NCBI GenBank assembly: GCA_947054185.1
Contig: CAMRVW010000001.1
Coordinates: forward strand, 1 to 53,023
DNA from: an uncultured Rikenellaceae bacterium
GTDB lineage: Bacteria > Bacteroidota > Bacteroidia > Bacteroidales > Rikenellaceae
Reading direction: 5' to 3'
DNA: 53,023 bases
Made by a program: the position numbers and the translations under genes
The notes under the pieces: model-generated
Seen by the model: only the letters and a program-made list of their open reading frames with translations
Databases searched by the model: none
Told to the model about the DNA's origin: nothing
Part shown: positions 16,322 to 34,280 of the stretch, one piece after another
Numbering within the stretch: position 1 is the first letter of the stretch
Layout of the letters: each line of letters starts with the position of its first letter

Positions 16322-16368
16322 GTATCGAAAGATCGTCACCGACAGTTTGTCGGTTTATGTCAAAAAAA

Positions 16369-16457
16369 GAATCACCCATACCCCCGCGGGGAGTGCCTTG
16401 ATGGTCGTAACGGGGGTGGCGGGGTTGTCACGACCGGCAGCGGAGGCAGAGTGATTC
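16369..16457 (-). ncRNA. Candidate C-rich structured RNA, copy 2
   Basis: Same architecture as copy 3. P1 and P2 each have one G.U, which would be a C.A mismatch on the + strand. U7 follows. Confidence 0.45.
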
Positions 16458-16502
16458 ATATCGAAAGATCGTCACCGACAGTTCGTCGGGTTATGTCAAA
16501 AA

Positions 16503-16590
16503 GATCACCCTTATCCCCGCGGGGAGTGCCTTTGGTGGTCGCAACGGGGGTGGCGGGGTTGTTGCGACCGGCAGCGGAGGCAGGGTGATC
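16503..16590 (-). ncRNA. Candidate C-rich structured RNA, copy 3 (first transcribed)
   Basis: On the sense strand, P1 is GAUCACCC/GGGUGAUC and P2 is GGUCGCAAC/GUUGCGACC (both perfect). The P2 loop is AACCCCGCCACCCCC, P3 is a CCCCGCGGGG hairpin, and U5 follows. Confidence 0.45.
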
Positions 16591-16594
16591 TGTG

Positions 16595-18706
16595 TTAATA
16601 GAGCATCTCAAATTCGTCTATATATAATGTACTTCCCTCACCGCCGATAAAGTCGGAGCCGTACACGCTTGAGGTGGCCACCATGACTATATGGGTCGGC
16701 TTGATGGTGTTGTCGTTGCCATCTTTGGCGAGGGTGTATTCTATGTCGAAGCCCGCTTCGGTATATTCGTCTTTGTTGTCGGCCGATTTGAATTCGCCGT
16801 AACCCACCACCGTGGGGTTGGACGGACGTTCGGTCAGGTTGGGGTCGCCCCAGTTCTCAAGGCTGATATAGACGTGCATCTGGTCGTCTTCTCCCTGGTG
16901 TGAGCCTCCGCCGCGGTTTATCTTCGTGGAGGTGTACTTATAGTGGAAGCGCAGGCCTGAGGGGCGGCCGGTGAACGGACGTCCGAAGTGCACGCTGGCT
17001 TTCGGGTTGGACATGTTGGTCTTGAAGTAACCGGTGAAGAGGTTACCAGCCGCAAAGGTGTTGGCCGGGAATCCCACCCACATGGAGGTCATCTTGACGC
17101 CACGGCCGCGGTATGCTTCCGACTCGTCGACAGGCACGGTGTTGGAGTTGGTCACTATGGTGACGCCGCTGTTGCCGGTATCCCAGAACTGGCTCACATC
17201 GCCGCCCCACGGGTTCCATGTCTTGCCCGACTGGCTCCACGCATCCATGTTGAGGTTGGGTATATAGTGCTTGCTTTCGGTGGTGAATGTAAGCTCGTTA
17301 CCTTCTATAAGGGCAGAGCGGGCGCGCACCTTGTATCTGGTGTCAGGGTCAAGACCGTGCAGCGTGGTCTTGAAGTCGGTGCCGTTCATTGCTATTTCAT
17401 CATCCGGGCATTGAGTCCATTGGCTGTCGCTCTCTTTGCGGTATTCGATGGTCAGACCCTCGGGTTGCTCCTCAGAGACCCAGGCGGCCTCTATATGGGC
17501 ATATGTTGCGAACGCCTCGACACTTTTGGTTTCGGTGTCGGCCTTTGAAGAGCGCACGTTGAATATGACCTCTTGTTCGACGAATCGTGAGTGGTTGTCG
17601 AGCAACATGAGGGTGATGATATGTTCGCCGGTCTTCATCTTGGAGGTCATGCCCGTGAAGTCGACGAAGCCTGATGTTGTGCCGATGCCTCCCCAGGTTA
17701 TGCCTGCCGCATTGAGGGCGGCAATCTTGTCGTCGTCGGCCGTGGTGAGGTTGGTAAACTCGGCTATGCCTTGCTGCGAGAGCGTCGGGTCGCAGTGGGT
17801 GATGTAAAGCAGGTCTATGCCGGCAGGCGATTCTATGTTTACGCGCACCGGAGTGACGACCTCCGACCATATATCGGTCGGGCTGTCCATGTTTATGTCG
17901 TCAGAGGCGAAGCTTCCCATGGGGGCATCGCAGGGCACAAGCACTATCTCGTGGTCAATGTCGCCGGTTGTGGCGTCGACGTTGACAGAGGTGTGTATGC
18001 CGCCGTCGGTGATTTCCCCTGTGTCTGAGACCTTGAACCTGAAGGTATAATGTTCGCGCGGCTTGACGCCCGTGATGGTCTTGCGTATGCGGTAAGTGGC
18101 GCCCTGTGTGTTGGTAAGGTCGAGCACCCAGCTGAGCGAGCCTGTCGCCTTGAAATAGGCCTGGCGGTTTTCGTCAGTGGTGAACGTGAGGGCGGCGTTG
18201 TCGCTTGCGTTGTTGGTAACGGAGGCTTCTATATGAGAGAAGTTGTCTGCCAGGTTTTCGTCGAAAACGACACTCACCTTTACATTGGCCAAAGAGCAGA
18301 CGGGCGAAACGCTGGTGAGTTCTCCCGTCTTTATCTTGAACTTCCGAGTGCCCACCAGATAGGGCGACTCCCAACCCGACTCCATGTCCTGACCGCTCGT
18401 GGCGGTGAGTGTGTATGTGCCGTAATCGAGCTCGACGGCCTCGGGCATGTCGTTGCTGTCGTCGAACGACATTACATCGACGCCCTTGGAGTCAGTAATC
18501 GTAACCCGATAACTGTCGGCGGCATCGGCATAAGTGGTGCGCTCTATTACCGAAACATCCTTGCGGATGCTCTCTATGAGCAATACTCCCTTGTCCTTGT
18601 CGAGTGCGGCTGTCGGATGCTGGGTGCATGACGGCGTCACGCACACCGACGATGCGGCGGCAAGAAGCATGGATATATGGCTTTTTATGTCGGTAAATAA
18701 CCTCAT
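16595..18706 (-). CDS. DUF4493-like/FN3/PCMD surface lipoprotein, operon gene 3
   Basis: The likely start is MRLFTDIKSHISMLLAAASSVCVTPSC (ATG at 18706); the open frame extends to 18898 but that part is not signal-peptide-like. A DUF4493-like block (WESPYLVGTRKFKIKTGELTSV...ANVKVSVVF) is followed by FN3-like LHGLDPDTRYKVRARS and a PCMD C-terminus (AAGNLFTGYF...FGRPFTGRPSGLRFHYKY...MHVYISLENW...THIVMVATSSVYG). Confidence 0.75.
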   Translation of the reverse strand: MRLFTDIKSHISMLLAAASSVCVTPSCTQHPTAALDKDKGVLLIESIRKDVSVIERTTYADAADSYRVTITDSKGVDVMSFDDSNDMPEAVELDYGTYTLTATSGQDMESGWESPYLVGTRKFKIKTGELTSVSPVCSLANVKVSVVFDENLADNFSHIEASVTNNASDNAALTFTTDENRQAYFKATGSLSWVLDLTNTQGATYRIRKTITGVKPREHYTFRFKVSDTGEITDGGIHTSVNVDATTGDIDHEIVLVPCDAPMGSFASDDINMDSPTDIWSEVVTPVRVNIESPAGIDLLYITHCDPTLSQQGIAEFTNLTTADDDKIAALNAAGITWGGIGTTSGFVDFTGMTSKMKTGEHIITLMLLDNHSRFVEQEVIFNVRSSKADTETKSVEAFATYAHIEAAWVSEEQPEGLTIEYRKESDSQWTQCPDDEIAMNGTDFKTTLHGLDPDTRYKVRARSALIEGNELTFTTESKHYIPNLNMDAWSQSGKTWNPWGGDVSQFWDTGNSGVTIVTNSNTVPVDESEAYRGRGVKMTSMWVGFPANTFAAGNLFTGYFKTNMSNPKASVHFGRPFTGRPSGLRFHYKYTSTKINRGGGSHQGEDDQMHVYISLENWGDPNLTERPSNPTVVGYGEFKSADNKDEYTEAGFDIEYTLAKDGNDNTIKPTHIVMVATSSVYGSDFIGGEGSTLYIDEFEMLY

Positions 18707-18867
18707 GTTGTTGTTTCTTTTAATTGCGACTCTTGCCATGGGGCCTTGCCGCTCTTTCATGAGAGCCTTTGGGGTGTCGTTTTGGCGTAAGTCGGTGCAT
18801 TTGCCAAGACATTGAAACTTGTGTGGCGGTGTCGCACCTTGGTTTTCGCAATATGCTTGTCTGTCCA

Positions 18868-18895
18868 TTGCCTGTGAGCGTACGGGCACAGGCAA
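18868..18895 (-). other. Intercistronic 9-bp stem-loop between operon genes 2 and 3
   Basis: ttgcctgtg (18868-18876) pairs with cacaggcaa (18887-18895), 12 nt after the stop at 18907. No U-run follows. Confidence 0.4.
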
Positions 18896-18906
18896 CACAG
18901 ACGATA

Positions 18907-20196
18907 TCAGTTGACCCTGTTTATTGTGAGGGTGGCTTTCACCTCTGCCTCCTTGTTGTCGACAAGGGTCATGTGGAACTTGTGTGTGTTGACATCGAGC
19001 AGAGACATGAAGGCGCCCACAGAGAACGAGGTGCTTTGTGCTCCGGCAATGGGTTTGCTGTCGATGAGACCGAGGTTGGTGAAAGCCCCCTTAAGCTCGT
19101 CAGACAGATTGGCGATGTCAAATTTGACGGGTATGTTGAGACCGCCCAATAGTTCTTCTGTGAGCAACGGCGAGTCTATCTCCACGAAAAGATGTGCGAT
19201 GCCTTCGGGGGCGTTGAAGTTGACGATCACTTCGGCCCCTGCCGCCTCCGCTTCGGTGAAGGTGAGGGGATTGGCTATGTTGAAGCCCTTGCCTTTGATG
19301 GTGGGGGCGCCGCCTTGCGGGGTGTCGTTGTCGTCCCATGGGTTGTCGGTGTCGCCGAAGTCGCTGCCGTCACCATCGTCGCCGCCCTCTTCGGGGATGA
19401 CCACGTCATACTCTTTGTCGGTGATCTCACCATCGAATATTATGCCCATATCGGCCTGCCCCGTGCCTATGGCGCTGATGCGGAAGCGGTGCAGTTCATT
19501 GGCCTTGATGTCGTCTATCATGACGGTCTTGGTGAGCACCGTGCCGCTCTTCTTGCTGGTACCTTTGGCAGTGACCCTCAGGCCGCCGGTGCCGACAGAG
19601 AAGAATCCGTATCTGTTTTTACCGTCAGGGGTGAAGACGAGCTCGCTGTTTTTGTTGCCGGCGTCAGTTTTGGCTATGGTGATGGTGCCGCCGTCGAGCT
19701 GTTCGGCGAAACTGGGGTCGAACTCGACGTATGTGGCTGCGCTTTGGAGCCTGCACGAGAGGTTGATCTCGGTGAGCTTGCCGGGCATTATGCCGATGCG
19801 GTCTTCGCCTCTGAAGTGTGGCGTGTCGAAACTTGCGATCTTTACATCGCGGCTTTCGGCTATAAGTGTGTAACTGCCCTTCTCTATCTCGGCAATGGGA
19901 GGCACGTCAGAGAGTCGGTCCCACTGGTGGGTGACGGCTTCGGTCTCGTTGTCGACAAGGGTTATCTTGAAGTCATCGACAACGGCCATTGCGGCTATGG
20001 CGTCACGATGCTCGTTTACAGAGACATTGTCGCTTATAGTGCCGTGGTCTGAGACCGACAGACTCTGCATGTCGGGGCGAGACTGGAGCCTGAAGCCCAT
20101 ATCTTTCTCGGTGCGCGAGGTGCTGCTGGCGCATGATGCTGCCATTATGCCGCCTGCCAGCAGGGTCAAGGTGTATAAGAAAGATTTTTTCATCAT
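18907..20196 (-). CDS. DUF4493-like surface lipoprotein with acidic linker, operon gene 2
   Basis: Lipobox MAASC. A DUF4493-like block (FDTPHFRGEDRIGIMPGKLTEINLSCRL...YVEF) is followed by the acidic linker PEEGGDDGDGSDFGDTDNPWDDNDTPQGG and a C-terminal Ig-like region. No PCMD domain is present. Confidence 0.7.
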   Translation of the reverse strand: MMKKSFLYTLTLLAGGIMAASCASSTSRTEKDMGFRLQSRPDMQSLSVSDHGTISDNVSVNEHRDAIAAMAVVDDFKITLVDNETEAVTHQWDRLSDVPPIAEIEKGSYTLIAESRDVKIASFDTPHFRGEDRIGIMPGKLTEINLSCRLQSAATYVEFDPSFAEQLDGGTITIAKTDAGNKNSELVFTPDGKNRYGFFSVGTGGLRVTAKGTSKKSGTVLTKTVMIDDIKANELHRFRISAIGTGQADMGIIFDGEITDKEYDVVIPEEGGDDGDGSDFGDTDNPWDDNDTPQGGAPTIKGKGFNIANPLTFTEAEAAGAEVIVNFNAPEGIAHLFVEIDSPLLTEELLGGLNIPVKFDIANLSDELKGAFTNLGLIDSKPIAGAQSTSFSVGAFMSLLDVNTHKFHMTLVDNKEAEVKATLTINRVN

Positions 20197-20259
20197 AATC
20201 TTTATTTTGTTCCGTAAGCAGCCTTGTTATTGACGTGCAATTTCAAAAAGGTCGCTTAA

Positions 20260-22407
20260 TTATAGTTTCGTATATATCAGTTCGACATTGTCAACGGTAA
20301 GCACGTTACCGATGTATTTACTGTCGGCGTATGCTTTAAACGCACCCAACGAGCCTTTGACCGGGTTGACTTTGGGAGTGTCGGCCGATGACGATTTGAA
20401 AGCCACGGATATATGGGTCGCTTTGAGGGCGGTGTTCGAGTAAACGAATGCAATGGTCGCTGTCGTGAAGTCGTTCATCGGGGTCTTGGCCGTTTCAGGG
20501 TCGATCTGCGCTCGCGCCAACTCGGTGACGGTGCCGTCTTCGGCGCGGTGCTCGACGATGGCCCACGCATCGAAGGCCTCTTCGCCTATCTGTGCGAACT
20601 TATAGTCGAATCTCACACCCTCTGGGCGGGAGGGGAACGAGCGGCCCATGTTTTCAGTGCGGTTAGAGATATCGTAATCGCCGATGAAAAGCATGCCCGC
20701 GGTGATGTTTTTCTTAATTCCTGCGCCTCCGGGGAAGGTCGAGCCGCTGCCCCAGTTGACGGTACTGATCTCAGCCGCCAACCCGCTAGGACCTTGCGCC
20801 GAACGTGTGCCGGAGTATTGGTTGTAATATGTCGAGGTGCCGTTCTTATCGCTGGTGGTGAGGGCGTTGCGCGTGTCCCAATATTTGGTGGCGGGGGTGT
20901 TGAAATCGTAAGGGAAGACCTCGTAAATCTCTATACCCATGCCCATAAGGAGCTTTTTGTAACACATCTGCTCGCTCCATGTCTCGAAATCGCGGCCGGG
21001 CACCTGCTCGTCTTTTTCGGTGGCAAACTCCGTTTCGGGGCCGAATGTGCTGTTATTGTAACATATCCTTACCTTGTAAGCGGTTTGCGGGTTGAAGCCC
21101 CAGACCTCCATTTGCAAGCTGTCGCCGGTTTCGTTGAGTGTCTTTTCTGCGGGCAGGTCTATCCACCGGCCGTCTGCAAAGCGCTGCAACTTGAATTTTT
21201 CAGGGTTGGCATCGGTGATGGTTATGCCAGTCTCTATGTGACGGGCCCATGCCATGCCCTCCGAGCTCATGTAATCGAAGCGTGCGGGGTCGACGTGGGC
21301 GGTGTATGTCGGGCTTGTGACGGTCTGGCCCATGCCGTCGGTGACTTTCAGGGTGAAAGTGTGGTCGCCGGGGGAGAGCATGCCCAATGTGGAGCTGAAA
21401 TCTATGTTGCCGGATGTGTTGTCGGCCATCTCGTCCCATTTGAGCGAGTCGCGTTCGAGCACCTTTTTGGTGTCGGCGTCGAGGGTGAGCAGGTCAAACT
21501 CTTCAGGCCATCCGTTAGCTCTCAGGAATGGTGATTCGACTTTAAGTATGCACTCCCTTATCTGTCCCGGGGCATATATGCCTATGCGGGCATTTTCGGT
21601 GAAGCCCTCGGTATATGTGGCGCGGTTGTCGGTAAAGCCTGTGACTGCAAATTCGGGCGCCGGTTTGGGCAACATGAATTTGGGTATCTCGAAGACAAGC
21701 TCCTTGTCGTCTGTGGTCAGATCTTTCTCTATGTTGAGAGAGAAAGTGCCGCCGCCGTTCTTAAGGTTGAGCTTTATGTGCTCGCCCGGTTTGACATCTT
21801 TTACGGTGGGGGGGATGTATATCTTCTGCTCTCCGTCAGTGTTTGTGAATGACACTCTGAAACGTATGTCGGCAGGGGGGGCGAAAGCTGAACGTGTCTC
21901 TTCCGGAGTGAACGTAAGACGTGTGCCCGAGGTGTAAAGAAGCACCGACAGGTCGCTGTGGGTCTCAAGGAAATCGTCGTCGGGGCATACGCTTATGCGT
22001 ACGTTGCGCAATCCAGCTGTCACCGACACGGGGGTCACCTTGCCGGGCAGTATGGTGACGGGGCTTTCGCCGTAATAATAGGGCTTGGAGAAACCGACCT
22101 TGGTGGAGTCGCCATAGAATGCGACCACCTTGTGTGTGCCCTGACGCACGTTGCCATAGCCTGTAAGGTCGGAATAACGGTTCCACTTCTTGAGAAGCGT
22201 CTGACCCGAATATATGAGAAGACGGAAATTGCCGAGGGTGGTGCCGCAGTCGTCGATAGGCTCGTCAAGGCTCTCCATAGCTTGAGAGCAGGCCAGCGAC
22301 ATGCTTATGGTGCCTTCGCCTTGCCCGGGGGCCTCGTCTGACCGTTTGCATCCCGACGCAAGAAGCGTAAAGATAAATATGAAGGTAAATATTTTAGCCA
22401 TATCCAA
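20260..22407 (-). CDS. DUF4493-like/FN3/PCMD surface lipoprotein, operon gene 1
   Basis: Lipobox LLASGC. A DUF4493-like block (FSKPYYYGESPVTILPGKVTPVSV...RNVRISV) is followed by FN3-like VWGFNPQTAYKVRICY and a divergent PCMD-like C-terminus (ITAGMLFIGDY...MGRSFPSRPEGVRFDYKF...THISVAFKSS...VDNVELIY). Confidence 0.72.
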   Translation of the reverse strand: MDMAKIFTFIFIFTLLASGCKRSDEAPGQGEGTISMSLACSQAMESLDEPIDDCGTTLGNFRLLIYSGQTLLKKWNRYSDLTGYGNVRQGTHKVVAFYGDSTKVGFSKPYYYGESPVTILPGKVTPVSVTAGLRNVRISVCPDDDFLETHSDLSVLLYTSGTRLTFTPEETRSAFAPPADIRFRVSFTNTDGEQKIYIPPTVKDVKPGEHIKLNLKNGGGTFSLNIEKDLTTDDKELVFEIPKFMLPKPAPEFAVTGFTDNRATYTEGFTENARIGIYAPGQIRECILKVESPFLRANGWPEEFDLLTLDADTKKVLERDSLKWDEMADNTSGNIDFSSTLGMLSPGDHTFTLKVTDGMGQTVTSPTYTAHVDPARFDYMSSEGMAWARHIETGITITDANPEKFKLQRFADGRWIDLPAEKTLNETGDSLQMEVWGFNPQTAYKVRICYNNSTFGPETEFATEKDEQVPGRDFETWSEQMCYKKLLMGMGIEIYEVFPYDFNTPATKYWDTRNALTTSDKNGTSTYYNQYSGTRSAQGPSGLAAEISTVNWGSGSTFPGGAGIKKNITAGMLFIGDYDISNRTENMGRSFPSRPEGVRFDYKFAQIGEEAFDAWAIVEHRAEDGTVTELARAQIDPETAKTPMNDFTTATIAFVYSNTALKATHISVAFKSSSADTPKVNPVKGSLGAFKAYADSKYIGNVLTVDNVELIYTKL

Positions 22408-22587: not shown

Positions 22588-22595
22588 CAAAGATA
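22588..22595 (-). promoter_or_regulatory. -7 box TATCTTTG for the PCMD/DUF4493 operon
   Basis: The reverse complement of caaagata lies ~180 nt upstream of the ATG at 22407, implying a long leader. Confidence 0.45.
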
Positions 22596-22877
22596 TGGCA
22601 TTTTTGATGGAGGTCCAAATTTTTTCGTCTGTTTTTTTGCTTAAAACGGCCTGTGGGGTGTTGTGGGGCCGATTGTCGGGTGGTAAATGAGAGGTTGCCG
22701 TGTGTGGTGTGCGGCGGGTTAGTGTTTTTTTTATTTTCTTTATTTTAAGATAACGATTATGTTGTTTTTGCGGTTATGACTCTTACATTTTAAGCGATAT
22801 CAGGCCTGTTGTAATGCGTTTTGTTGTGGCGTGACGGTAAAAATGTGGCAAATGTGATGCAACTCGGAAAATATTAT

Positions 22878-24404: not shown

Positions 24405-24466
24405 TGTCGCCAACCGTCATTCTCTTTCAGCGGTTCTGCGAAGCCGTGAAAGAGCGATAACATCAA

Positions 24467-24494
24467 GGCCGTCATATCATTGACGGCCTTTTTT
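24467..24494 (+). terminator. Rho-independent terminator of aspA
   Basis: ggccgtca (24467-24474) pairs with tgacggcc (24481-24488), followed by T6. Confidence 0.8.
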
Positions 24495-24668
24495 GTGTAT
24501 TTGCGGGAGATTTTGTGGATGTACGGGGCGGTGAGTTGACGGCTTTGGGTGACAATTACATAGAGTCGGGCAGACGGCAATAACAGAGGACTGTTTTCTA
24601 TATTATTATATATAAGAGGTGTAAGGAAATAGGACGGTACGGATGAAAAATAGCGTTTTGCAACACAA

Positions 24669-25072
24669 TTGCAAAACAAAACGGCTATCTTTGACCTGAT
24701 GGTTTAAGGTACTCGTGCTCGGCAAAAGCAGACAAAGTTGCTTGTCTCTCGGCTTAACCGTATCGTTGACCTGACGGTCTAAGATACTCCGCCTCGGACA
24801 ACCAAATAAAATTTGCTTGTCTCTCGGCTTAACCGTATCGTTGACCTGACGGTTTTAAGATACTCTCGCTCGGCAAAAAAACAAACAAGTTTGCTTTTGC
24901 GCTCGCTTATCCGTATCGTTGGCTGACGCCTTAGATACTTCGCCTCGGACAACCAAATAAAATTTGCTTGTCTCTCGGCTTCATCGTATCTTTAACCTGC
25001 TGGTTTAAGGTACTCGTGCTCGGCAAAACACAAACAAGTTTGCTTTTGCGCTCGCTTAATCGTATCTTTGTG
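24669..25072 (+). repeat. Tandem array of ~5.4 units (73-78 nt) of a promoter-like repeat ending at the start of the metal-efflux operon
   Basis: Units begin at about 24669, 24738, 24813, 24891, 24964 and 25039. Each has TTGCTT..N~20..TATC(G/T)TTG. Exact TATCTTTG boxes lie at 24686-24693 and 25063-25070, the latter 5 nt before the ATG at 25076. Confidence 0.9.
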
Positions 25073-25075
25073 GTG

Positions 25076-25498
25076 ATGAACAAGAGATTGTTACATATAG
25101 TGTTGCTGTTGGCGGCCGCCGTTTCGTTCGTGGCCCATGCCGCGGTTGTGCACCATCATCATCTTAGAACTGTATGTCTGGATGTGGTCTGTGAGTGCAT
25201 GTGCCCGGGTGAGTGCGGCACGTGTGACGGTTGCGACGGTTGCCACGACGGCGACACCTGCCGGGAGGAGTGTGTGGCGTTCGCCTTGTTCGAGTTGCCG
25301 CACTCTCACGACGACGAATCGGTTGCGGCGAGCGACCTGCCCGACAGTGGCCCGGTGCCATTATCGGTTGAAGATGTGAGGGTGGCTGCGGTGTGCGCGG
25401 GGTGTCTCTTGTCGTGTGACGATGCCATGGCGTTGCCACACCGTCTTATTGTAAGGTCGTTGTCTTTGCGTGCCCCGCCGGTGGGGCTTTATGTGTGA
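25076..25498 (+). CDS. Small secreted Cys/His-rich protein (putative metal-binding)
   Basis: 140 aa starting MNKRLLHIVLLLAAAVSFVAHA (signal peptide), then HHHH and 13 Cys (VCLDVVCECMCPGECGTCDGCDGCHDGDTCREEC...). It is the first gene of the RND operon. The longer ORF from 24968 uses TTG inside the repeat array. Confidence 0.5.
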   Translation: MNKRLLHIVLLLAAAVSFVAHAAVVHHHHLRTVCLDVVCECMCPGECGTCDGCDGCHDGDTCREECVAFALFELPHSHDDESVAASDLPDSGPVPLSVEDVRVAAVCAGCLLSCDDAMALPHRLIVRSLSLRAPPVGLYV

Positions 25499-25584: not shown

Positions 25585-26823
25585 ATGTTTAGATATATAA
25601 TGTTGTTTGCGGCGTTTCTGTTTGTCGTATCGTGCGACGGCGGAAGTGCCGATGCCGATGTGGCCGTTGCTGTGGGCGCGGCGCACGACCATGACCATGA
25701 AGACGAGCATAACCATGGCGACGATCACGTTCACGGCGCTCTCGACCACGAGGACGAGCATGCCGACGAGGCGCACGACCATGACGAAGATGCCCGTGTG
25801 ATAGTGTTCAATCCCGAAACGGCCGCCAAGCTGGGGTTTGAGATAACGGAGGCGACGGTGCGGCCCGTGAGCGGCGCCCTGCATGTGGCCGGACGGGTGT
25901 TGTCGGCACAGGGCGACGAGGCGGTGGTGTCGGCGCCGGTGTCGGGCATGGTGGCCTTGCCCGAGAGGAGTCTGGCCGACGGCGTGTATGTCGCCAAGGG
26001 TCAGACCGTCATGACCATAGTTTCTGACGATATGTTGCAAGACAATTACATGGAGCAGTTTAACGCTGCCAAGGCGGCTTACGACAAGGCTTCGGGCGAT
26101 TATGAAAGGGCACGTCAGTTGGCCGGCGACACTATTGTGAGCGCCAAGGAGCTGGCGGCCGTAAAGGCGGAGTATATGCAGGCCAAGGTCCGTTATGAGG
26201 TGTTGGCGCGCAATGCCGCAAATGGCGGCAAGCGGGTGGTGGCGCCCATGGCGGGTTATGTGGGAGCCATAGAGGTGCGACAGGGTCAGTATGTCGCCTC
26301 GGGGACGCCTCTTGCCGTGATTACGCAAGGCAGGCGTATGAGGTTGCGTGTGGATGTGCCGCAGCGCGATTTCGCCGTCATGGGGCAGAGGCTGTCGGCG
26401 CGTTTTGTCACCCCTTACGACGGCAAATGTTACGATATCGCCGACATGGACGGGCGGTTGGTCTCTAAAGGAAGATCGACCGACGGCGGCTTCTTCGTGC
26501 CCGTGACCTTTGAGTTTGACGGTGCCGGGCAGGTGATGCCGGGGGCGTTCGTGGATGTCTATCTGTCGGGCGGCGATGCCAAAGAGGTGTTGGCCGTGCC
26601 GGCGGGGGCGTTGGTTGAAGAGCAGGGAGTCTATTCGGTATATAAGAGAGTGGGACCCGACGAGTTTGAGAAACGATATGTAAAGCCCGGAGTCAGCGAC
26701 GGCGGGTATGTCGAGATTGCGGCCGGCCTGGAGCCCGGCGACAGGGTGGTGTCGAGCGGTGCCTATTATGTAAAGTTGGCGGGGGTATCGGCCTCGGTGC
26801 CGGCGCACAGTCATTCACATTAA
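25585..26823 (+). CDS. Efflux RND periplasmic adaptor (CzcB/CusB-like) with His/Asp/Glu-rich N-terminus
   Basis: 412 aa with lipobox FVVSC. The segment AHDHDHEDEHNHGDDHVHGALDHEDEHADEAHDHDED precedes the barrel-sandwich/hairpin regions typical of membrane fusion proteins. Confidence 0.88.
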   Translation: MFRYIMLFAAFLFVVSCDGGSADADVAVAVGAAHDHDHEDEHNHGDDHVHGALDHEDEHADEAHDHDEDARVIVFNPETAAKLGFEITEATVRPVSGALHVAGRVLSAQGDEAVVSAPVSGMVALPERSLADGVYVAKGQTVMTIVSDDMLQDNYMEQFNAAKAAYDKASGDYERARQLAGDTIVSAKELAAVKAEYMQAKVRYEVLARNAANGGKRVVAPMAGYVGAIEVRQGQYVASGTPLAVITQGRRMRLRVDVPQRDFAVMGQRLSARFVTPYDGKCYDIADMDGRLVSKGRSTDGGFFVPVTFEFDGAGQVMPGAFVDVYLSGGDAKEVLAVPAGALVEEQGVYSVYKRVGPDEFEKRYVKPGVSDGGYVEIAAGLEPGDRVVSSGAYYVKLAGVSASVPAHSHSH

Positions 26824-26835
26824 TCGGTTAAAGAG

Positions 26836-29800
26836 ATGATAAACAGGATAATAAAATATTCTCTCGACAACAGGTTGGTGATAATGGCGCTCTCTGTGCT
26901 GCTCATGTTTGCGGGCGGTTACACTGTGGGGCGCATGGAGGTCGATGTGTTTCCCGACCTTACCGCGCCCACAGTGGTGGTGATGACCGAGGCGCAGGGT
27001 CTGGCCTCCGAAGAGGTGGAACGGCTGGTGACCTTTCCTGTGGAGACATCGTTGAACGGTGCCACCAACGTGCGGCGCGTACGTTCGCAGTCGTCGACGG
27101 GCTTCTCGGTGGTATGGGTCGAGTTTGACTGGGGCACCGACATATACATAGCCCGGCAGATTGTCACCGAGAAGCTGGGCAGCGTGTCCGAGCAGTTGCC
27201 CGACGGTGTGGGTGCACCCACGCTTGCGCCCCAGTCGTCGTTGCTCGGCGAGGTGATGATAATAGGTGTCACATCAGACAGCATGTCGCTCGGGCAGTTG
27301 CGCACGTTGGCCGACTGGTCTATGCGTCCGCGTCTGTTGTCGGTGGGCGGTGTGGCCCAGGTGACGGTGTCGGGCGGCGAGGTGGCCGAGTATCAGATAC
27401 TTCTCGACCCCTTACGCATGAAGCATTACGGCGTCACCCTCGACGAGGCGTTAGCCGCTGCCGGGAGGCTCAACGACAACGCCTCGGGCGGCATAATAAA
27501 CAGTCGCGGCAACGAATATATAATACGCGGCATGGTGCGTACCACCGATCCCGTGCAGATGGGGCAGGCTGTGGTAAGGCAGGCGGACGGGCTGCCCGTC
27601 ACCTTTGCCGACATAGCCACGGTGCGCATGGGTGCCAAGAGTCCGCTGCTTGGCGAGGCCTCGGTGGAGGGCAAGCCGGGTGTGTTGCTCTCGATAACCA
27701 AACAGCCGGGCGTCGACACGGGCCGCCTGACCGAAGAGTTAGACCGCACATTGGCCGACCTTAAGAGAAACATGCCCGCCGGAGTGGTGTTCAACACCGA
27801 CATTTTCCGTCAGTCGACATTCATAGACGCTTCGATACATAACATAGAGCGCGCCCTGATAGAGGGAGCCGTGCTGGTGGTGGTGATATTGTTCATATTT
27901 TTAGCCAATGTGCGCACCACTGTCATATCGCTGGTGGCCATACCGTTGTCGCTGCTCTTCTCGGTGGTGGTGCTCAAGGTGATGGGGCTCACGCTCAATA
28001 CCATGAGTTTGGGCGGGTTGGCCATTGCCATAGGTTCGCTTGTGGACGACGCCATAATAGACGTTGAGAATGTGTTCCGCCGGTTGCGTGAAAACAACCT
28101 GCTGCCGCCGGAGAGCCGGGCTCCCAAGCTGAAGGTGATATATGAGGCGTCGGCAGAGATCCGTTCGTCGATATTCAATGCCACGCTCATCATCATAGTC
28201 ACTTTCGTGCCCCTCTTTTTCCTTAGCGGCATGGAGGGACGCATGCTCAAGTCGTTGGGGGTGTCGTTCATAGTGTCGCTCTTTGCCTCTATGGTTGTGG
28301 CTGTCACCATCACACCCGTGTTGTGCTCGTATATGCTCACCTCAGACAAGATGTTGGCCGGCCATGAGCGCGAGCCGTGGATCACCCGCAAGATGAAAGA
28401 GGGGTATCGCAGGTTGCTCACGGCGGTGCTGAACCATCGTAAGGTGGTGGTGGCCGTGGCCGTGGTGCTCTTCGGCGGCGCCATGTTTGTGATGACGCGT
28501 CTGGGGCGCAGCTTTCTGCCTCCGTTCAACGAGGGGTCGATGTCGATTTCGCTGGCCACCCTTCCGGGCACCGACATGGCTCACAGCGGACGTTTGGCAT
28601 CCATTGCAGAGGAGATGCTTTTGTCCATCCCCGAGGTCAGGACCGTGGCCCGCAAGACGGGACGCGCCGAGCTCGACGAGCATGCTTTGGGCTCCAACAC
28701 CTCGGAGCTTGACGTGCCTTTCGTGCTCGGTGACAGAAGCCGTCGGGAGCTGTTTGCCGAGGTGCGCGACAAGCTGGGGTCGATAGACGGCGTGGTGTTC
28801 GAGATAGGGCAGCCCATATCGCACCGCATGGACATGTTGCTGTCGGGTACGCGTTCAAATATCGCCATCAAGATATTCGGCGATGACCTGCAACGCATGT
28901 TTGCCATAGGCGGCTCCATCAAGACGCTTGTGGAGGATATACCCGGTCTGGTGGATGTCAATGTGGAGCAGCAGATAGAGAGTCCGCAGATACACATAAA
29001 GCCCCGCAGACAGGTGCTGTCGCGTCTTGGCATACCCATAGGCGACTTTGTCGACGATTTGGAGGTGGCTCTGGCCGGGCGCGTGGTGTCGCAGGTCTAT
29101 GACAGGTCGCGTAACTTTGACGTGACGGTGAAATTTGACGACAGGGTGAAAGAGTCGCCCGAGGAGTTGGGCCGCATACTCTTCGACGCCACGGTGGACG
29201 GACGCAGCGTCAAGGTGCCGCTCGGCGAGATTGCCGAGATAGTATCCACGTCGGGTCCCAACTCGGTAAACCGCGAGAATGTGATGCGCAAGGTGGTGGT
29301 GTCGGCAAACGTGGAGGGGGGCGACCTGCGAGGCGTGGTCGATGAGATTGCGCGCCGTGTGGATGAGTCGATAGCGTTGCCCGAAGATTATCACATTGAG
29401 TATGGCGGTCAGTTCGAGAGCGAGGCGGCGGCATCGCGCACGTTGATGATAATGTCGGCTCTCTCGATATTGGTGGTGCTTCTGCTGCTGTTCGGCGAGT
29501 TTCACAATGTCAGGCTCACGGGCATAGTGATGCTCAACCTGCCACTGTCGCTCATTGGCGGGGTGTTTGCCGTGTGGCTGTCGTCGGGGGTGATAAGCAT
29601 ACCTTCCATAATAGGTTTCATATCGCTTTTCGGTATTGCCACGCGCAACGGCATATTGCTCATATCTCACTTCAATGACTTGAAAAACAAGGGTATGGGT
29701 GTGGTTGAACGGGTGGTCGCAGGTTCTTACGACCGTCTCAACCCCATCATACTGACGGCCCTTACCTCGGGGTTGGCCTTGATACCCATTGCATTAGGTG

Positions 29801-29937
29801 GGTCGTTGCCCGGCAATGAGATTCAGAGTCCCATGGCCGTGGTGATACTCGGCGGTCTTTTCAGCTCCACATTGTTGAATCTTTTCGTTGTGCCGGCGGT
29901 ATATGTGCTTGTGTATGACGGAAAAGAGAGGGAGTGA
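26836..29937 (+). CDS. CusA/CzcA-family heavy-metal efflux RND transporter
   Basis: 1033 aa with 12-TM RND topology and two large periplasmic loops. The N-terminus MINRIIKYSLDNRLVIMALSVLL is typical of the HME-RND family. Confidence 0.95.
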   Translation: MINRIIKYSLDNRLVIMALSVLLMFAGGYTVGRMEVDVFPDLTAPTVVVMTEAQGLASEEVERLVTFPVETSLNGATNVRRVRSQSSTGFSVVWVEFDWGTDIYIARQIVTEKLGSVSEQLPDGVGAPTLAPQSSLLGEVMIIGVTSDSMSLGQLRTLADWSMRPRLLSVGGVAQVTVSGGEVAEYQILLDPLRMKHYGVTLDEALAAAGRLNDNASGGIINSRGNEYIIRGMVRTTDPVQMGQAVVRQADGLPVTFADIATVRMGAKSPLLGEASVEGKPGVLLSITKQPGVDTGRLTEELDRTLADLKRNMPAGVVFNTDIFRQSTFIDASIHNIERALIEGAVLVVVILFIFLANVRTTVISLVAIPLSLLFSVVVLKVMGLTLNTMSLGGLAIAIGSLVDDAIIDVENVFRRLRENNLLPPESRAPKLKVIYEASAEIRSSIFNATLIIIVTFVPLFFLSGMEGRMLKSLGVSFIVSLFASMVVAVTITPVLCSYMLTSDKMLAGHEREPWITRKMKEGYRRLLTAVLNHRKVVVAVAVVLFGGAMFVMTRLGRSFLPPFNEGSMSISLATLPGTDMAHSGRLASIAEEMLLSIPEVRTVARKTGRAELDEHALGSNTSELDVPFVLGDRSRRELFAEVRDKLGSIDGVVFEIGQPISHRMDMLLSGTRSNIAIKIFGDDLQRMFAIGGSIKTLVEDIPGLVDVNVEQQIESPQIHIKPRRQVLSRLGIPIGDFVDDLEVALAGRVVSQVYDRSRNFDVTVKFDDRVKESPEELGRILFDATVDGRSVKVPLGEIAEIVSTSGPNSVNRENVMRKVVVSANVEGGDLRGVVDEIARRVDESIALPEDYHIEYGGQFESEAAASRTLMIMSALSILVVLLLLFGEFHNVRLTGIVMLNLPLSLIGGVFAVWLSSGVISIPSIIGFISLFGIATRNGILLISHFNDLKNKGMGVVERVVAGSYDRLNPIILTALTSGLALIPIALGGSLPGNEIQSPMAVVILGGLFSSTLLNLFVVPAVYVLVYDGKERE

Positions 29938-29965
29938 GAGTGGTTACATTAAAAGAGACAGATTG

Positions 29966-31195
29966 ATGAAAAAGATATTTTTAGCGGCCCTGATGTCGTT
30001 TGCCTCGCTTGCCGGGCAGGCGCAGATAGAGCCTAACACCGTGATGTGCACCAAAGATATGCCCGTCATGGAGATGCCAATGGGGGCGGGTTATGCCCGT
30101 TTCATAGAGCATGTGCTGGCTTCGAGTGTCGAGATAGAGGCGCTCGGGGCCGCGCTTGAGGCCGAGACAAAGGCTGCGCGCGTGGGCATAGGGCCTGAAG
30201 ACCCCGAGGCCGAGATAGCCTATTTCGTAAAGCGTAACACATCGTTCGAGATGAATGTGGTGCAGGGGTTTGAGTTTCCCACCGTCTATGTCAACCGTTC
30301 GCGGTTGGCGCGTTTGCAGTCGGCTCGCAGCGGTGCGGCCTATCGCATGGCGGTGCGTGAGTTGGTGGGGCAGGCGCAAGCCATGTATATGGATGCCGTC
30401 TATTACAACAACCTCATATCGTTGCTGGCGCGTTCGCTCGACAATGCCGACCGTTTTTACCGCACCTATCGCAAGCGTATGACCGGCGGTGATGGCACCG
30501 TGTTGGAGGCCAATAAGATAGAGGCGATGTATTTGGGCGTGTCGGCGCAGTATCGCAAGGCGGTGACCGAGCGTGACAACAATCTGCGCAAGATGCGCCT
30601 GCTGGCTTCACTGCCCGAGACGTTCACCGTCACCGACAGCATCTATCCTGCATTCGATGTTGACGTCGAGGGCTTTGTGGCACGTGCCCTCGAGATGGAT
30701 TACGGCCTTGAGCAGGCGGCAATAGACACGCTGATCGCCCGGAGGCAGCTGCGTCTGTCACGCAGCGAGAGGCTGCCCGGCTTTAAGGTCGGTTACCGTC
30801 TGAGCATGGAGGCGCGTGAGCCGTCGCACGGTGTCGTTGCCGGTTTGAGCATACCGCTGTGGGGACGGGCAGGCTCTGTAAAGGCGGCCAAGGCGGCGCA
30901 GCACTCTGCACACAAGAGCATGGAGGCCAAGCGCGCCTTGCTCGAAGCGGAGCTCGAGGGGGTGAGAGAGTCGTACCTTACATCTGTGGCCACGCTTGAC
31001 GATTACCGCAGGTTGCTCAGGGGACGTTCGTCGGCCGAGGTGCTCGGCAAGGCCCTCGATGCGGGCGAGCTGTCGGTGCTCGAATATTTCGTGGAGCTCA
31101 ACGTGTGGTACGATACCGCGGTGGCGATAGTTGAAAACGAGCACGAGGCGGCTCTTGCGGCGGCCTTCATGCAGTTGTGCGTGTCGGAGTTTTGA
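29966..31195 (+). CDS. TolC-family outer-membrane efflux protein
   Basis: The start MKKIFLAALMSFASLAGQAQ (ATG at 29966) is a signal peptide. The body is a two-repeat alpha-helical OMF. The open frame extends to 29888 and overlaps the RND gene. Confidence 0.85.
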   Translation: MKKIFLAALMSFASLAGQAQIEPNTVMCTKDMPVMEMPMGAGYARFIEHVLASSVEIEALGAALEAETKAARVGIGPEDPEAEIAYFVKRNTSFEMNVVQGFEFPTVYVNRSRLARLQSARSGAAYRMAVRELVGQAQAMYMDAVYYNNLISLLARSLDNADRFYRTYRKRMTGGDGTVLEANKIEAMYLGVSAQYRKAVTERDNNLRKMRLLASLPETFTVTDSIYPAFDVDVEGFVARALEMDYGLEQAAIDTLIARRQLRLSRSERLPGFKVGYRLSMEAREPSHGVVAGLSIPLWGRAGSVKAAKAAQHSAHKSMEAKRALLEAELEGVRESYLTSVATLDDYRRLLRGRSSAEVLGKALDAGELSVLEYFVELNVWYDTAVAIVENEHEAALAAAFMQLCVSEF

Positions 31196-33400: not shown

Positions 33401-33964
33401 CTATTTCGCCGTGTTTTTACGGTGTCTTTCCGGGTCGAAAAATTTGTATCCTATGTTTACGCCTATCTTGTAAGGCATCCATTCGGCCGACATGTTGTAA
33501 AAGATATCTTCGCCAGTTACCTTGTTCAGCCCTGTGTACCAGCTGTGTTGCCAGCCATATCCCACGAACGCCTCTATGAGCATGCGTTTGCCAACCCTCC
33601 ATTGGTAACCGGTGGTGGCGCCTATGATAATGCCCCAGCCTTTGCAGTTTTTCATGTCGTCTTTGGCCATGTTAAAGCCCAGCATGCCGGCAGAGGCCCC
33701 TATATACCAGCCGTTGAAGTTTTCTTTGGTGTGAAACCTTACCTCGTTGAGGAATAAGCCGAATTGCATGGGACGTCCGCCCACAGAGTTCCACGGAGAG
33801 TACACACCCTCCATGTTGAAGGTGGTCTTTTTAGACAGAGGCATCTCCAATGACGGATTTATGACCCCCACGAGCGCATATACGCCGTTGAGTTTGACGT
33901 AAGATTGCGCCATAAGACTTGTGGATGACAATATCGCCAATGTGAGGAGGATGAACTTTTTCAT
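33401..33964 (-). CDS. DUF3575-like small outer-membrane beta-barrel protein
   Basis: 187 aa with a signal peptide ending MAQS. The alternating aromatic/glycine beta-strand pattern (GWYIGASAGM, GIIIGATTGYQW, EAFVGYGWQ) fits the family. Confidence 0.65.
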   Translation of the reverse strand: MKKFILLTLAILSSTSLMAQSYVKLNGVYALVGVINPSLEMPLSKKTTFNMEGVYSPWNSVGGRPMQFGLFLNEVRFHTKENFNGWYIGASAGMLGFNMAKDDMKNCKGWGIIIGATTGYQWRVGKRMLIEAFVGYGWQHSWYTGLNKVTGEDIFYNMSAEWMPYKIGVNIGYKFFDPERHRKNTAK

Positions 33965-33974: not shown

Positions 33975-34195
33975 TTGTTGCAAAGATACGATTAAGCCGA
34001 GAGGCAAGCAAATTTTATTTGTTTGCCCGAGGCGAGAGTATCTTAAAACCGACAGGTTAACGATACGATTAAGCCGAGAGGCAAGCAAATTTTATTTGTT
34101 TGTCCGAGGCGAGAGTATCTAAGACCGTCAACTCAAAGATGGCAAAAACTTGTTTGTTTTTGCCCCGGCGAAGTATTTAAGGCGAAGCTGAAAAC
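33975..34195 (-). repeat. Second array (~3 units) of the same ~75-nt promoter-like repeat, oriented toward the DUF3575-like gene
   Basis: On the minus strand the sequence reads ...ttgcttgcctctcggcttaatcgtatcgttaacc... and ends ...cttaatcgTATCTTTGcaacaaatattctatcATG. The TATCTTTG box lies at 33981-33988 and the ATG at 33964. Confidence 0.85.
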
Positions 34196-34280
34196 ATGAA
34201 CAGGCGAGGGCAAAAGCAAGGATGGTGTGTTTTGCTGTCAGGTCAAATGTATATAACAGAAAATGTTGTCGTACAGTGTT

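What the first reader, a model, noticed from the sequence alone, without database searches (positions are those of the whole stretch)
24669..25072. Tandem array of ~75-nt promoter-like units abutting the start codon of the metal-efflux operon
- About 5.4 direct repeats (periods of 75, 78, 73 and 75 nt for the four best-defined units) fill the whole space between the aspA terminator region and the ATG at 25076.
- Each unit carries a TTG-containing block (aaTTTGCTTg), followed ~20 nt later by a -7-like box: TATCTTTG, TATCGTTG (three times), TATCTTTA and TATCTTTG.
- It is therefore a stack of Bacteroides sigma-ABfr-type promoter look-alikes.
- The last, perfect box ends only 5 nt before the ATG, which would imply an essentially leaderless mRNA.
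- Units alternate between two tail variants (cggacaaccaaataaaatt and cggcaaaa.acaaacaagtt).
- Units also contain a conserved hairpin (cttaaccgt ... acggt.taag).
- The same family recurs at 33975-34195 in the same orientation relative to another envelope gene.
- I know of no described repeat class with this behaviour.
Basis: partly seen in the sequence, partly recalled or inferred. Interest (0 to 1): 0.65.

Follow-up and report, generated by a model that had tools for sequence, protein, structure and literature searches.

The report
Promoter-carrying repeat inserted behind promoter boxes
The tandem array is five copies of a small repeat, abundant in gut and rumen Bacteroidales and not found in the literature searched, that sits exactly behind a gene's own promoter box and supplies a replacement promoter at its end.

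Summary
Window 24694-25070 holds five head-to-tail ~75-nt units in two alternating subtypes. A second array of the same family lies at 34243-33981 on the minus strand.

The units are not a local oddity. A capped metagenome scan and a genome scan gave about 80 distinct arrays of 1-5 units in Prevotella, Prevotellaceae and Rikenellaceae-like contigs. Almost all point at a gene start; one sits 4 nt before a tRNA gene.

Each unit has three elements:
- An arm complementary to a -7 box, forming hairpin H1.
- An AT-rich palindrome, H2, which holds the -33 TTTG.
- A -7 box, TATCTTTG, as its last 8 nt.
Both hairpins show compensatory changes across the family.

Syntenic relatives lack the units at both loci and have a single TAnnTTTG box there. 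With the array removed, the window aligns collinearly with its closest relative. The array is therefore an insertion directly 3' of the native -7 box.

Only the terminal units match the full Bacteroides promoter consensus. Internal boxes are mostly off consensus. Copy number differs between strains.

I found no transcription data. How the family spreads is unknown. "A stack of firing promoters" is only partly supported.

The parts
24465..24500 (+). Intrinsic terminator of aspA (10-bp stem, then a T-run). Not part of the repeat.
   Evidence: The same hairpin is conserved in the relative L136.
24654..24685 (+). Native upstream promoter region (palindrome TTTTGCAAcacaaTTGCAAAA, then aaaacggc). 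It is homologous to the unit-free promoter of the closest relative.
   Evidence: collinear with L136 ...attgcaacacgagtgcaagagtaaattca.
24686..24693 (+). Native -7 box TATCTTTG. It is the left flank (insertion point) of the array and forms the 5' arm of the first H1 hairpin.
   Evidence: In L136 this box is followed directly by tattcgATG.
24694..24768 (+). Unit A1 (75 nt). The H2 palindrome is a hybrid of the two subtypes. Its box is TATCGTTG, which is off consensus.
   Evidence: nhmmer hit E=6.6e-10.
24769..24843 (+). Unit A2 (75 nt, subtype 1: GACAACCAAATAAAATTTGCTTGTC). Its box is TATCGTTG.
   Evidence: E=1.6e-12. H2 fold z=-3.9.
24844..24921 (+). Unit A3 (78 nt, subtype 2: GCAAAAAAACAAACAAGTTTGCTTTTGC). 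Its box is TATCGTTG.
   Evidence: E=2.7e-11.
24922..24994 (+). Unit A4 (73 nt, subtype 1). Its box is TATCTTTA.
   Evidence: E=7.3e-11. H2 fold z=-4.2.
24995..25070 (+). Unit A5 (76 nt, subtype 2), the terminal unit. It has -33 TTTG at 25039-25042, a 20-nt spacer and -7 TATCTTTG at 25063-25070. This is the inferred working promoter.
   Evidence: Best nhmmer hit, E=7.8e-16. It is the only unit of array A that matches TTTG-N19-21-TAnnTTTG.
25076..25498 (+). First gene of the operon: a 140-aa secreted His/Cys-rich protein. The ATG is 5 nt after the box, so the mRNA is inferred to be leaderless.
   Evidence: no Pfam family. Orthologues occupy the same position in L136-L138.
25585..31195 (+). RND efflux genes: CusB/CzcB-type adaptor (25585-26823), AcrB-type pump (26836-29937) and outer-membrane factor (29888-31195).
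34244..34251 (-). Probable native -7 box TACATTTG of the DUF3575 gene. It is followed directly by acctgaca, the left end of the first (decayed) unit of array B.
   Evidence: Unit-free orthologous sites with TATATTTG were seen.
34134..34243 (-). Decayed units of array B. Recognisable remnants of H1, H2 and the linkers remain, and the box reads CATCTTTG.
   Evidence: Below the nhmmer threshold.
34058..34133 (-). Unit B1 (76 nt, subtype 1). Its box is TATCGTTA.
   Evidence: E=6.6e-11. 94% identical to A2/A3 over 80 nt (I1).
33981..34057 (-). Unit B2 (77 nt, subtype 1), the terminal unit. It has the full consensus promoter with box TATCTTTG at 33988-33981.
   Evidence: (0 mismatches).
33401..33964 (-). 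DUF3575 outer-membrane beta-barrel gene. Its ATG is 16 nt after the terminal box of array B.

Best explanation
Array A is a head-to-tail cluster of five copies of a ~75-nt non-coding dispersed repeat. The repeat is common in gut and rumen Bacteroidales.

**Unit anatomy, 5' to 3'**
1. A short apical stem, then CnAAGATAC, which is complementary to a -7 box.
2. The linker TCnCGCTCGG.
3. An AT-rich palindrome (H2) with a one-base bulge. Its 3' arm contains the -33 TTTG.
4. The linker CGCTCG(G)CTTAATCG.
5. The -7 box TATCTTTG as the last 8 nt.

**How it sits in the genome (shown)**
- The element lies immediately 3' of a pre-existing TAnnTTTG box.
- The displaced native box pairs with the element's left arm to form hairpin H1.
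- The element's own -33/-7 pair lands at about the same distance from the gene as the old one.

**What follows (inferred)**
- The gene keeps a promoter, here giving an essentially leaderless mRNA for the metal-efflux operon.
- Every unit recreates a -7 box at its 3' end, so further copies can be added behind it.
- Unequal recombination can also change the number of units. Together these give tandem arrays that vary between strains.
- The gene-proximal unit is kept intact as the working promoter. Internal units decay or are silenced.

**Status of the steps**
- Shown: family membership, unit anatomy, insertion point, orientation towards genes and copy-number variation.
- Inferred: promoter activity of the terminal unit.
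- Unknown: the enzyme or recombination route that copies units to new sites.
For: **Dispersed, multicopy family**
- Word depth inside the arrays is 15-100 times that of the flanks in DNA runs. Reads leave the unit at 25070/25071 into many different sequences.
- A genome scan gave 11 loci in named Prevotella, Prevotellaceae and Bacteroidaceae MAGs.
- A profile search found 236 units in about 80 distinct arrays of 1-5 units.

**Orientation towards genes**
- Of 50 arrays with enough flank, 32 have a same-strand ORF start within 50 nt of the 3' end, and 42 within 120 nt.
- On the other side the counts are 4 and 8.
- Distances cluster at 4-5 nt and at 19-32 nt.
- In L012 the unit ends 4 nt before a tRNA-Ser gene.

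**Empty sites**
- The syntenic relative L136 (adaptor protein 79% identical) has ...TATCTTTGtattcgATG and no unit.
- The window with 24694-25070 removed aligns collinearly with it.
- More distant relatives (L137, L138) are also unit-free.
- Orthologues of the array B site are unit-free and have TATATTTG. No unit was found in any of those loci.

**Left flank**
- The left flank of arrays is a -7-like box in 38 of 49 cases, with variable middle bases.

**Terminal versus internal units**
- Consensus boxes occur in 31 of 33 terminal units and 17 of 45 internal units.
- In the window only the terminal units match the full consensus.

**Hairpins**
- H2: 87% of cells paired. There were 62 compensatory cells against 24.8 expected. 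The covariation score was 0.331 against 0.133, reached by 0 of 500 shuffles.
- H1: 31 compensatory cells against 10.4 expected. The score was 0.214 against 0.118, reached by 0 of 500 shuffles.

**Copy number varies**
- L024 and L123 share both flanks and differ by exactly one 73-nt unit.
- Other orthologous groups show 1/2, 2/3 and 3/4/5 units.
- A strain in run X5 lacks 152 nt of array A.
Against: - No transcription start data exist for this organism, so promoter use is inferred from motif, position and orientation only.
- The loci were collected with a pattern that requires a good -7 box. This favours functional-looking copies and inflates the terminal-box statistic for single-unit arrays. 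The multi-unit comparison is less affected.
- The empty-site comparisons use relatives at 56-79% protein identity. Precise loss of the array in those lineages cannot be excluded.
- No transposase lies in the window.
- Array orientation shows no bias with respect to GC skew (25 against 21). This does not fit the best-known hairpin-guided single-strand transposases.
- Many left-flank boxes are preceded by ..TCG, as in the unit itself, so some may be decayed units rather than native boxes.
Confidence: 0.7

Rival explanations
1. The array is a stack of working promoters. Every unit initiates transcription, and copy number tunes expression of the efflux operon.
For: - Every unit has TTTG about 20 nt before a -7-like box.
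- The native box at 24686 is a perfect TATCTTTG.
- Copy number varies between strains.
- 17 of 45 internal boxes elsewhere are still consensus.
Against: - In the window none of the internal units meets TTTG-N19-21-TAnnTTTG.
- Four internal boxes carry a change inside or at the end of the TTTG core.
- Internal boxes sit in the 5' arm of hairpin H1.
- Within an array the internal units often share the same defect: TATCGTTG x3 here, TACATTGG x3 in L124 and CAATCTTT in L106.
Confidence: 0.15
2. The array is a purely local minisatellite. The gene's own promoter was duplicated in tandem by slippage, and no dispersed or mobile family is involved.
For: - The structure is tandem.
- One-unit indels occur between strains.
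Against: - The same unit lies before about 80 unrelated genes in many genomes.
- It recurs 9 kb away in the window at 91-94% identity.
- The native promoter of the relative shares only the 8-nt box with the unit.
Confidence: 0.03
3. The units are REP/BIME-type extragenic palindromes kept by a RAYT-like enzyme. Their main role would be in mRNA stability, termination or DNA topology, and the promoter look is incidental.
For: - There are two covarying palindromes per unit.
- Two variants alternate in tandem.
- Copy number is high and the family is homogeneous within a genome.
Against: - Units are all head-to-tail, not in alternating orientation.
- There is no GTAG or CGTC tag (sequence; PMC3733652 read).
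- Units lie at the 5' side of genes in a fixed orientation, not at 3' ends.
- The terminal unit ends exactly at the -7 box.
Confidence: 0.07
4. The units act as RNA. Transcripts from an upstream start run through the array, and the hairpins form a structured leader or small RNAs.
For: - Both hairpins show compensatory changes.
- Run X24, labelled 'RNA?', has short contigs that span more than one unit of related copies.
Against: - In the commonest case (47 of 80 arrays) there is a single unit that ends at the -7 box, so it is upstream of the transcript.
- Non-Watson-Crick cells in H2 show G-T 8 against A-C 17, so there is no RNA-type wobble excess on the sense strand.
- Rfam gave no match even at E=10.
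- X24 may contain DNA.
Confidence: 0.08
5. The units are operator arrays. The conserved linkers (CGCTCG repeats and the AAGATAC/GTATCTT half-sites) would bind a global regulator or nucleoid protein, and the repeats spread because of that function.
For: The linkers are conserved in sequence from Prevotella to the window's organism, while the stems only keep complementarity.
Against: - No candidate protein is known.
- The spacing between the AAGATAC and GTATCTT half-sites varies from 3 to 15 nt.
- This view does not explain the insertion exactly behind -7 boxes.
Confidence: 0.07

Closest known systems
Putative mobile promoters (promoter reuse; Matus-Garcia, Nijveen and van Passel 2012; PMC3575422)
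   Same: Near-identical promoter regions lie in front of unrelated genes, both within one genome and across genera. The way they move is unknown.
   Different: - Here the unit has a defined anatomy of two covarying hairpins.
- It has a precise insertion point behind the -7 box.
- It forms tandem arrays.
- That paper does not mention Bacteroidetes.
Correia elements (CREE/NEMIS) of Neisseria
   Same: Both are small (about 100-150 nt) non-coding dispersed repeats with short terminal inverted repeats. Both sit next to genes and supply outward promoters (own knowledge; cited in PMC3575422).
   Different: - Correia elements insert at TA with a TA duplication.
- They are usually single copies and carry sigma-70 promoters.
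- They are not known to target promoter boxes or to stack head-to-tail.
REP/BIME and REPIN elements with RAYT transposases
   Same: Both are high-copy palindromes with compensatory changes, clustered in regular arrays with alternating variants and homogeneous within a genome.
   Different: - REPs carry GTAG or CGTC tags.
- They alternate in orientation.
- They lie mainly after genes.
- None of these features holds here.
IS200/IS605-derived palindrome-associated elements (PATEs)
   Same: - Both have hairpins near the ends.
- Both insert 3' of a short specific sequence without a true duplication.
- In both, internal sequence is complementary to the flank, which recalls guide-to-cleavage-site pairing (own knowledge of IS608).
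   Different: - No orientation bias relative to GC skew was seen.
- No Y1 transposase has been linked to the family.
- The layout differs: here the order is target, hairpin, then complement.
Bacteroides primary-sigma promoter (-33 TTTG / -7 TAnnTTTG; Bayley et al. 2000, own knowledge; generic motifs also reported for Segatella copri in 10.1101/2024.04.05.588293)
   Same: The terminal units fit the consensus and its 19-21 nt spacing. They lie 4-32 nt before gene starts.
   Different: Ordinary promoters conserve only the two boxes. Here the spacer, about 45 nt upstream of the -33 box, and two palindromes are conserved across families of bacteria.

Membership tests
Bacteroides-type primary-sigma promoter | -7 box TAnnTTTG | tested here: met
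   - The terminal units of A (25063-25070) and B (33988-33981) read TATCTTTG.
- The internal units of A read TATCGTTG x3 and TATCTTTA, and fail.
- Family-wide, 31 of 33 terminal boxes and 17 of 45 internal boxes are consensus.
Bacteroides-type primary-sigma promoter | -33 TTTG placed 19-21 nt upstream of the -7 box | tested here: met
   The spacing is 20 nt in the window units and 19-20 nt in Prevotella-type units.
Bacteroides-type primary-sigma promoter | Transcription starts a few nt downstream of the box | not testable with these tools
   No RNA run holds this organism.
Putative mobile promoters | Homologous promoter region before non-homologous genes, within and between genomes | tested here: met
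   The downstream genes include leuS, prfA, holA, a Y-family polymerase, tRNA-Ser, efflux genes and an outer-membrane protein.
MITE (for example Correia) | Terminal inverted repeats | tested here: met
   (C)AAAGATAC ... GTATCTTT(G), 7-9 nt, at the two ends of single units such as L016/L036.
MITE (for example Correia) | Target-site duplication made on insertion | tested here: inconclusive
   - Array A is flanked by TATCTTTG on both sides.
- Array B has TACATTTG on the left and TATCTTTG on the right.
- The right box therefore looks like part of the element rather than a duplication.
MITE (for example Correia) | A parent insertion sequence with the same ends | not tested
There is no transposase in the window.
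REP/BIME | GTAG or CGTC tag at one end of the palindrome | tested here: not met
   H1 starts (C)GTATC. H2 starts G(C/A)AAA.
REP/BIME | Neighbouring palindromes in alternating orientation, mostly after genes | tested here: not met
   All units in an array are head-to-tail, and the arrays lie before gene starts.
REP/BIME | A cognate RAYT gene flanked by the repeats | not testable with these tools
   This needs the complete genome.
IS200/IS605-type PATE | Insertion 3' of a short specific sequence | tested here: met
   The units begin directly after TAnnTTTG.
IS200/IS605-type PATE | Orientation bias with respect to replication | tested here: not met
   - 25 arrays lie on the G-rich strand and 21 on the C-rich strand.
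- Arrays A and B are in opposite orientation in one stretch of constant skew.
Described structured RNA (Rfam 15) | Match to a covariance model | tested here: not met
   No match at gathering score in the window, nor at E<=10 in 24600-25100.

The most novel reading that the evidence does not exclude
The family is a self-propagating 'promoter mimic'. It would be a non-autonomous element that finds -7 boxes through its complementary left arm and integrates exactly behind them. It then pays for the insertion by supplying an equivalent promoter. Insertions would be near-neutral, so the element could colonise a large share of the promoters of gut and rumen Bacteroidales. It would be moved by an enzyme not yet linked to it.
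Probability: 0.35. Interest if true: 0.85.

Novelty: new variant of a known kind. Interest (0 to 1): 0.72.

Why it matters
- If the terminal units are the working promoters, many genes in Prevotella, Rikenellaceae and related gut and rumen bacteria are driven by copies of one repeat. These would include housekeeping genes and a tRNA.
- That would affect promoter prediction, transcription-start annotation and the design of expression tools for these bacteria.
- It would also affect assembly, because contigs break at these arrays.
- Insertion exactly behind a -7 box, with a replacement promoter, would be an unusual way for a selfish element to avoid harm to its host.
- The arrays also mark places where the DNA upstream of the same gene and terminal unit differs completely between assemblies. 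They may therefore be recombination break points.

Tried and rejected
- **Mis-registered pattern.** My first collection pattern was one base out of register for the window's own units. It still returned 11 true family members, but I could not count copies in a complete genome.
- **RNAalifold.** On the plain MAFFT alignment of 76 junction segments it predicted no structure, because stems and loops were misaligned. I replaced it with anchored alignments and explicit pair counts.
- **RNA evidence.** Three searches for RNA runs gave none that hold this organism. The 'organism A' runs were listed only by shared species label, not because they hold the sequence. Run X24 ('RNA?') does not contain the rpsA region.
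- **tRNA, tmRNA and Rfam.** Nothing was found.
- **Literature.**
  - The sequence strings are not in the searched papers.
  - The Segatella copri transcriptome paper and its supplements do not contain the unit.
  - I judged the 188-bp Prevotella intermedia repeat (PMC4755523) unrelated from its size and restricted host range; its sequence was not compared.
- **CRISPR-like array.** Rejected, because the whole period is conserved and there are no variable spacers.
- **Sigma-70 promoter scan.** It has no bearing here, and nothing exceeded chance.
- **Replication-strand bias.** Tested and not found.

Full report
**1. The observation**

Tandem Repeats Finder reports 24686-25070 with period 75 (4.4 copies) and, better, period 151 (2.6 copies, 84% matches, score 547). 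Reading the sequence gives six -7-like boxes.
- They start at 24686, 24761, 24836, 24914, 24987 and 25063.
- They read TATCTTTG, TATCGTTG x3, TATCTTTA and TATCTTTG.
- The last ends 5 nt before the ATG at 25076.

That ATG opens a 140-aa protein with a signal peptide and His/Cys-rich stretches. It is followed by a CusB/CzcB-type adaptor, an AcrB-type RND pump and an outer-membrane factor. "Metal-efflux operon" is therefore a fair description.

A second array of the same family lies on the minus strand (34243->33981). It ends 16 nt before the ATG of a DUF3575 outer-membrane protein. Units of the two arrays are 91-94% identical over 54-80 nt. The unit core occurs 5 times in the window against 0.00 expected from shuffles.

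Two details of the finding need correction.
- About 185 nt of ordinary spacer lies between the aspA terminator (24465-24490) and the array.

**2. The unit belongs to a large dispersed family**

In DNA runs from mouse gut the word depth inside the arrays is 15-100 times that of the flanks. Sequences leave the unit at 25070/25071 into many different continuations.

Collection scans gave these results.
- A pattern scan of species-representative genomes gave 11 loci in Prevotella, Prevotellaceae and 'Bacteroidaceae' MAGs from rumen and gut.
- A profile of the 70-nt unit finds 236 units.
- After merging orthologous loci there are about 80 distinct arrays. Their sizes are 47 of 1 unit, 26 of 2, 4 of 3, 1 of 4 and 2 of 5.

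The closest relative of the window's adaptor protein is named as a Rikenellaceae MAG, and the runs that hold the window are mouse-gut samples. The window itself is an ordinary chromosomal stretch without a transposase. It carries folE, lptF/G, secA, aspA, dnaX, rpsA, PFOR, folP and cdaA.

**3. Anatomy of a unit**

From the family alignment, a unit reads 5' to 3' as follows.
1. A short variable stem-loop, then CnAAGATAC.
2. The linker TCnCGCTCGG.
3. An AT-rich palindrome, H2.
4. The linker CGCTCG(G)CTTAATCG.
5. The box TATCTTTG.

The -33 TTTG lies in the 3' arm of H2. The -7 box is the last 8 nt of the unit. It is also the 5' arm of a hairpin, H1, whose 3' arm is the CnAAGATAC of the next unit.

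Both hairpins keep complementarity while their sequence changes.
- **H2, energy tests.** The mean z-score against shuffles is -4.2. Cognate arms fold at -7.6 kcal/mol against -3.3 for arms swapped between loci, reached by 0 of 2000 permutations.
- **H2, explicit pair count.** 87.4% of cells are paired (73.7% in shuffles). There are 62 compensatory cells (24.8 expected). The covariation score is 0.331 against 0.133, reached by 0 of 500 shuffles. Slid controls give 0.06-0.11.
- **H1, pair count.** 31 compensatory cells (10.4 expected). The score is 0.214 against 0.118, reached by 0 of 500 shuffles. Slid controls give 0.04-0.09. The changes lie in the three apical pairs.
- **RNA or DNA.** Non-Watson-Crick cells in H2 are G-T 8 against A-C 17. 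There is no sign of RNA-type wobble on the sense strand, so the constraint looks DNA-level. This is not decisive.

In the window itself the hairpins are modest, at -2 to -6 kcal/mol as DNA. The significance comes from the family.

**4. Relation to genes**

Fifty distinct arrays have at least 420 nt on both sides.
- A same-strand ATG ORF of at least 80 aa starts within 50 nt of the 3' end in 32, and within 120 nt in 42.
- On the other side a divergent ORF start lies that close in only 4 and 8.
- Distances cluster at 4-5 nt (the leaderless arrangement seen in array A) and at 19-32 nt.
- In L012 the unit ends 4 nt before a tRNA-Ser gene, so the bias is not an artefact of ORF calling.

The downstream genes are unrelated to each other. 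They include leuS, prfA, holA, a Y-family polymerase and outer-membrane proteins.

**5. Terminal and internal units differ**

With the strict Bacteroides consensus TTTG-N19-21-TAnnTTTG the window has 7 matches (0.33 expected). Two of them are the terminal units of arrays A and B, and none is an internal unit.

In multi-unit arrays the terminal box is TAnnTTTG in 31 of 33 cases. Internal boxes are consensus in 17 of 45. Internal units of one array often share the same defect.

The search pattern demanded one good box per locus. This biases the single-unit cases, but biases the within-array comparison much less.

**6. Empty sites**

This is the most informative result.

*Array A.*
- The adaptor's closest homologue (79% identity) lies in a syntenic locus: aspA, spacer, small His/Cys protein, adaptor, pump.
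- Its spacer is 353 nt and ends ...attgcaacacgagtgcaagagtaaattcaTATCTTTGtattcgATG, with no unit.
- The window spacer with 24694-25070 removed aligns collinearly with it. The shared features are the terminator hairpin, the 'tatatataa' block, the ttgcaacac..tgcaa palindrome, TATCTTTG and the ATG.
- That alignment has 251 identical columns and score 135, against 41 with the array left in.
- Two more distant relatives also have a bare TATATTTG 7 nt before the ATG.

*Array B.*
- Orthologous sites with rpsA-MBL-DUF3575 synteny have a 35-nt spacer with TATATTTG and no unit. Another relative is likewise unit-free.
- In the window the box TACATTTG (34251-34244) is followed at once by acctgaca, the start of a unit.
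- The left box here differs from the unit's own TATCTTTG. It therefore looks native rather than a duplication.

*All loci.*
- No unit is detectable in any of these relatives' loci.
- Across the family the left flank of the first unit is a -7-like box (at least 5 of 6 positions) in 38 of 49 arrays, with variable middle bases.

**7. Dynamics**

- L024 and L123 share both flanks and differ by exactly one 73-nt unit.
- L039 and L054 carry the same downstream gene and terminal unit joined to unrelated upstream DNA.
- Other orthologous groups show 1/2, 2/3 and 3/4/5 units.
- A strain in run X5 lacks 152 nt, or two units, of array A.
- L005 and L010, from one MAG, share the same two-and-a-half-unit block, including a defective internal unit. 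Multi-unit blocks can therefore be copied as a whole.

These are short-read assemblies, so individual counts may be collapsed.

**8. Explanation**

The array is a cluster of copies of a promoter-carrying dispersed repeat that sits directly 3' of a native -7 box. It replaces the native promoter with its own at a similar distance: 5 nt from the ATG here, against 6 in the relative.

The terminal unit is most likely the working promoter and, for the efflux operon, gives a leaderless mRNA. Internal units are mostly crippled. Each unit ends in a -7 box, so further units can be added behind it, and recombination can change their number.

How units reach new sites is open.
- A hairpin-recognising enzyme is attractive, because the element carries a complement of its target.
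- However, orientation shows no bias relative to GC skew (25 against 21; arrays A and B are opposite within constant skew).
- No enzyme has been linked to the family.
- Copying between -7 boxes by recombination or template switching is an alternative.

**9. Comparison with known elements, and novelty**

The family works like the "putative mobile promoters" of Nijveen and colleagues (PMC3575422) and like promoter-bearing small repeats such as Correia elements.
- It fails defining features of REP/BIME: no GTAG or CGTC tag, no alternating orientation, and a position before genes.
- It does not show the strand bias expected of IS200/IS605 derivatives.
- It matches no Rfam family.
- Searches of the literature by sequence string and by topic found no description.
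- The Segatella copri start-site study reports only the generic -7 and -33 motifs.

I rate it a new variant of a known kind: a small promoter-carrying repeat with an unusual, promoter-box-specific position and tandem growth.

**10. Limits**

- There are no transcription data.
- No complete genome could be scanned.
- The loci were ascertained through a good -7 box.
- The relatives used for the empty sites are not close strains.
- Copy number in the window is not confirmed by long reads.

Noticed in passing
window 16228-16589: An intergenic tandem repeat with a 136-nt period (2.7 copies, 92% matches) lies between two minus-strand genes of a DUF4493/PCMD paralogue cluster (13522-22401). No long ORF spans it.
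   Followed up: partly
window 256-388 and 52956-53023: The two ends of the window carry a 51-nt inverted repeat (92% complementary). Next to it are 21-24-nt tandem repeats (GAGGCAGTTCCCGCAAAACAA...). This looks like another dispersed repeat, and it may be why the contig ends there.
   Followed up: no
window 25076-25498; L136 1986 onward; L137 1628 onward; L138 266 onward: A small secreted protein with an HHHH run and several Cys pairs has no Pfam family. It is conserved as the first gene of this RND efflux operon in all relatives seen. It may be a periplasmic metal-binding partner.
   Followed up: partly
L136 1964-1985; L137 1611-1627; L138 249-265: In the unit-free relatives the native -7 box lies 6-7 nt before the ATG. 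The leaderless arrangement of this operon therefore predates the insertion.
   Followed up: yes
L024, L123, L039, L054 (same downstream gene): The same gene and terminal unit are joined to three unrelated upstream sequences in different metagenomes. The repeats may act as recombination break points.
   Followed up: partly
L005 5728-5899 and L010 768-1007 (one MAG): Two different loci share an identical block of two and a half units, including an internal unit that has lost its -33 TTTG. This suggests that whole blocks are copied.
   Followed up: no
window 41618-41655 and 41941-41978: A 38-nt direct repeat (92% identical), with copies 323 nt apart, lies in the long spacer between the MBOAT gene and the PFOR gene.
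   Followed up: no
window 410-440, 22588-22619, 37076-37106, 38862-38892, 45995-46025: Five ordinary full-consensus Bacteroides-type promoters lie outside the repeat family. Three of them also use TATCTTTG as their -7 box, so the unit's box is the common one in this organism.
   Followed up: partly
L132 7340-7436 (IMG/VR contig): One unit of the family lies on a contig classed as viral. Its context was not examined, and no ORF of at least 80 aa follows within 300 nt.
   Followed up: no
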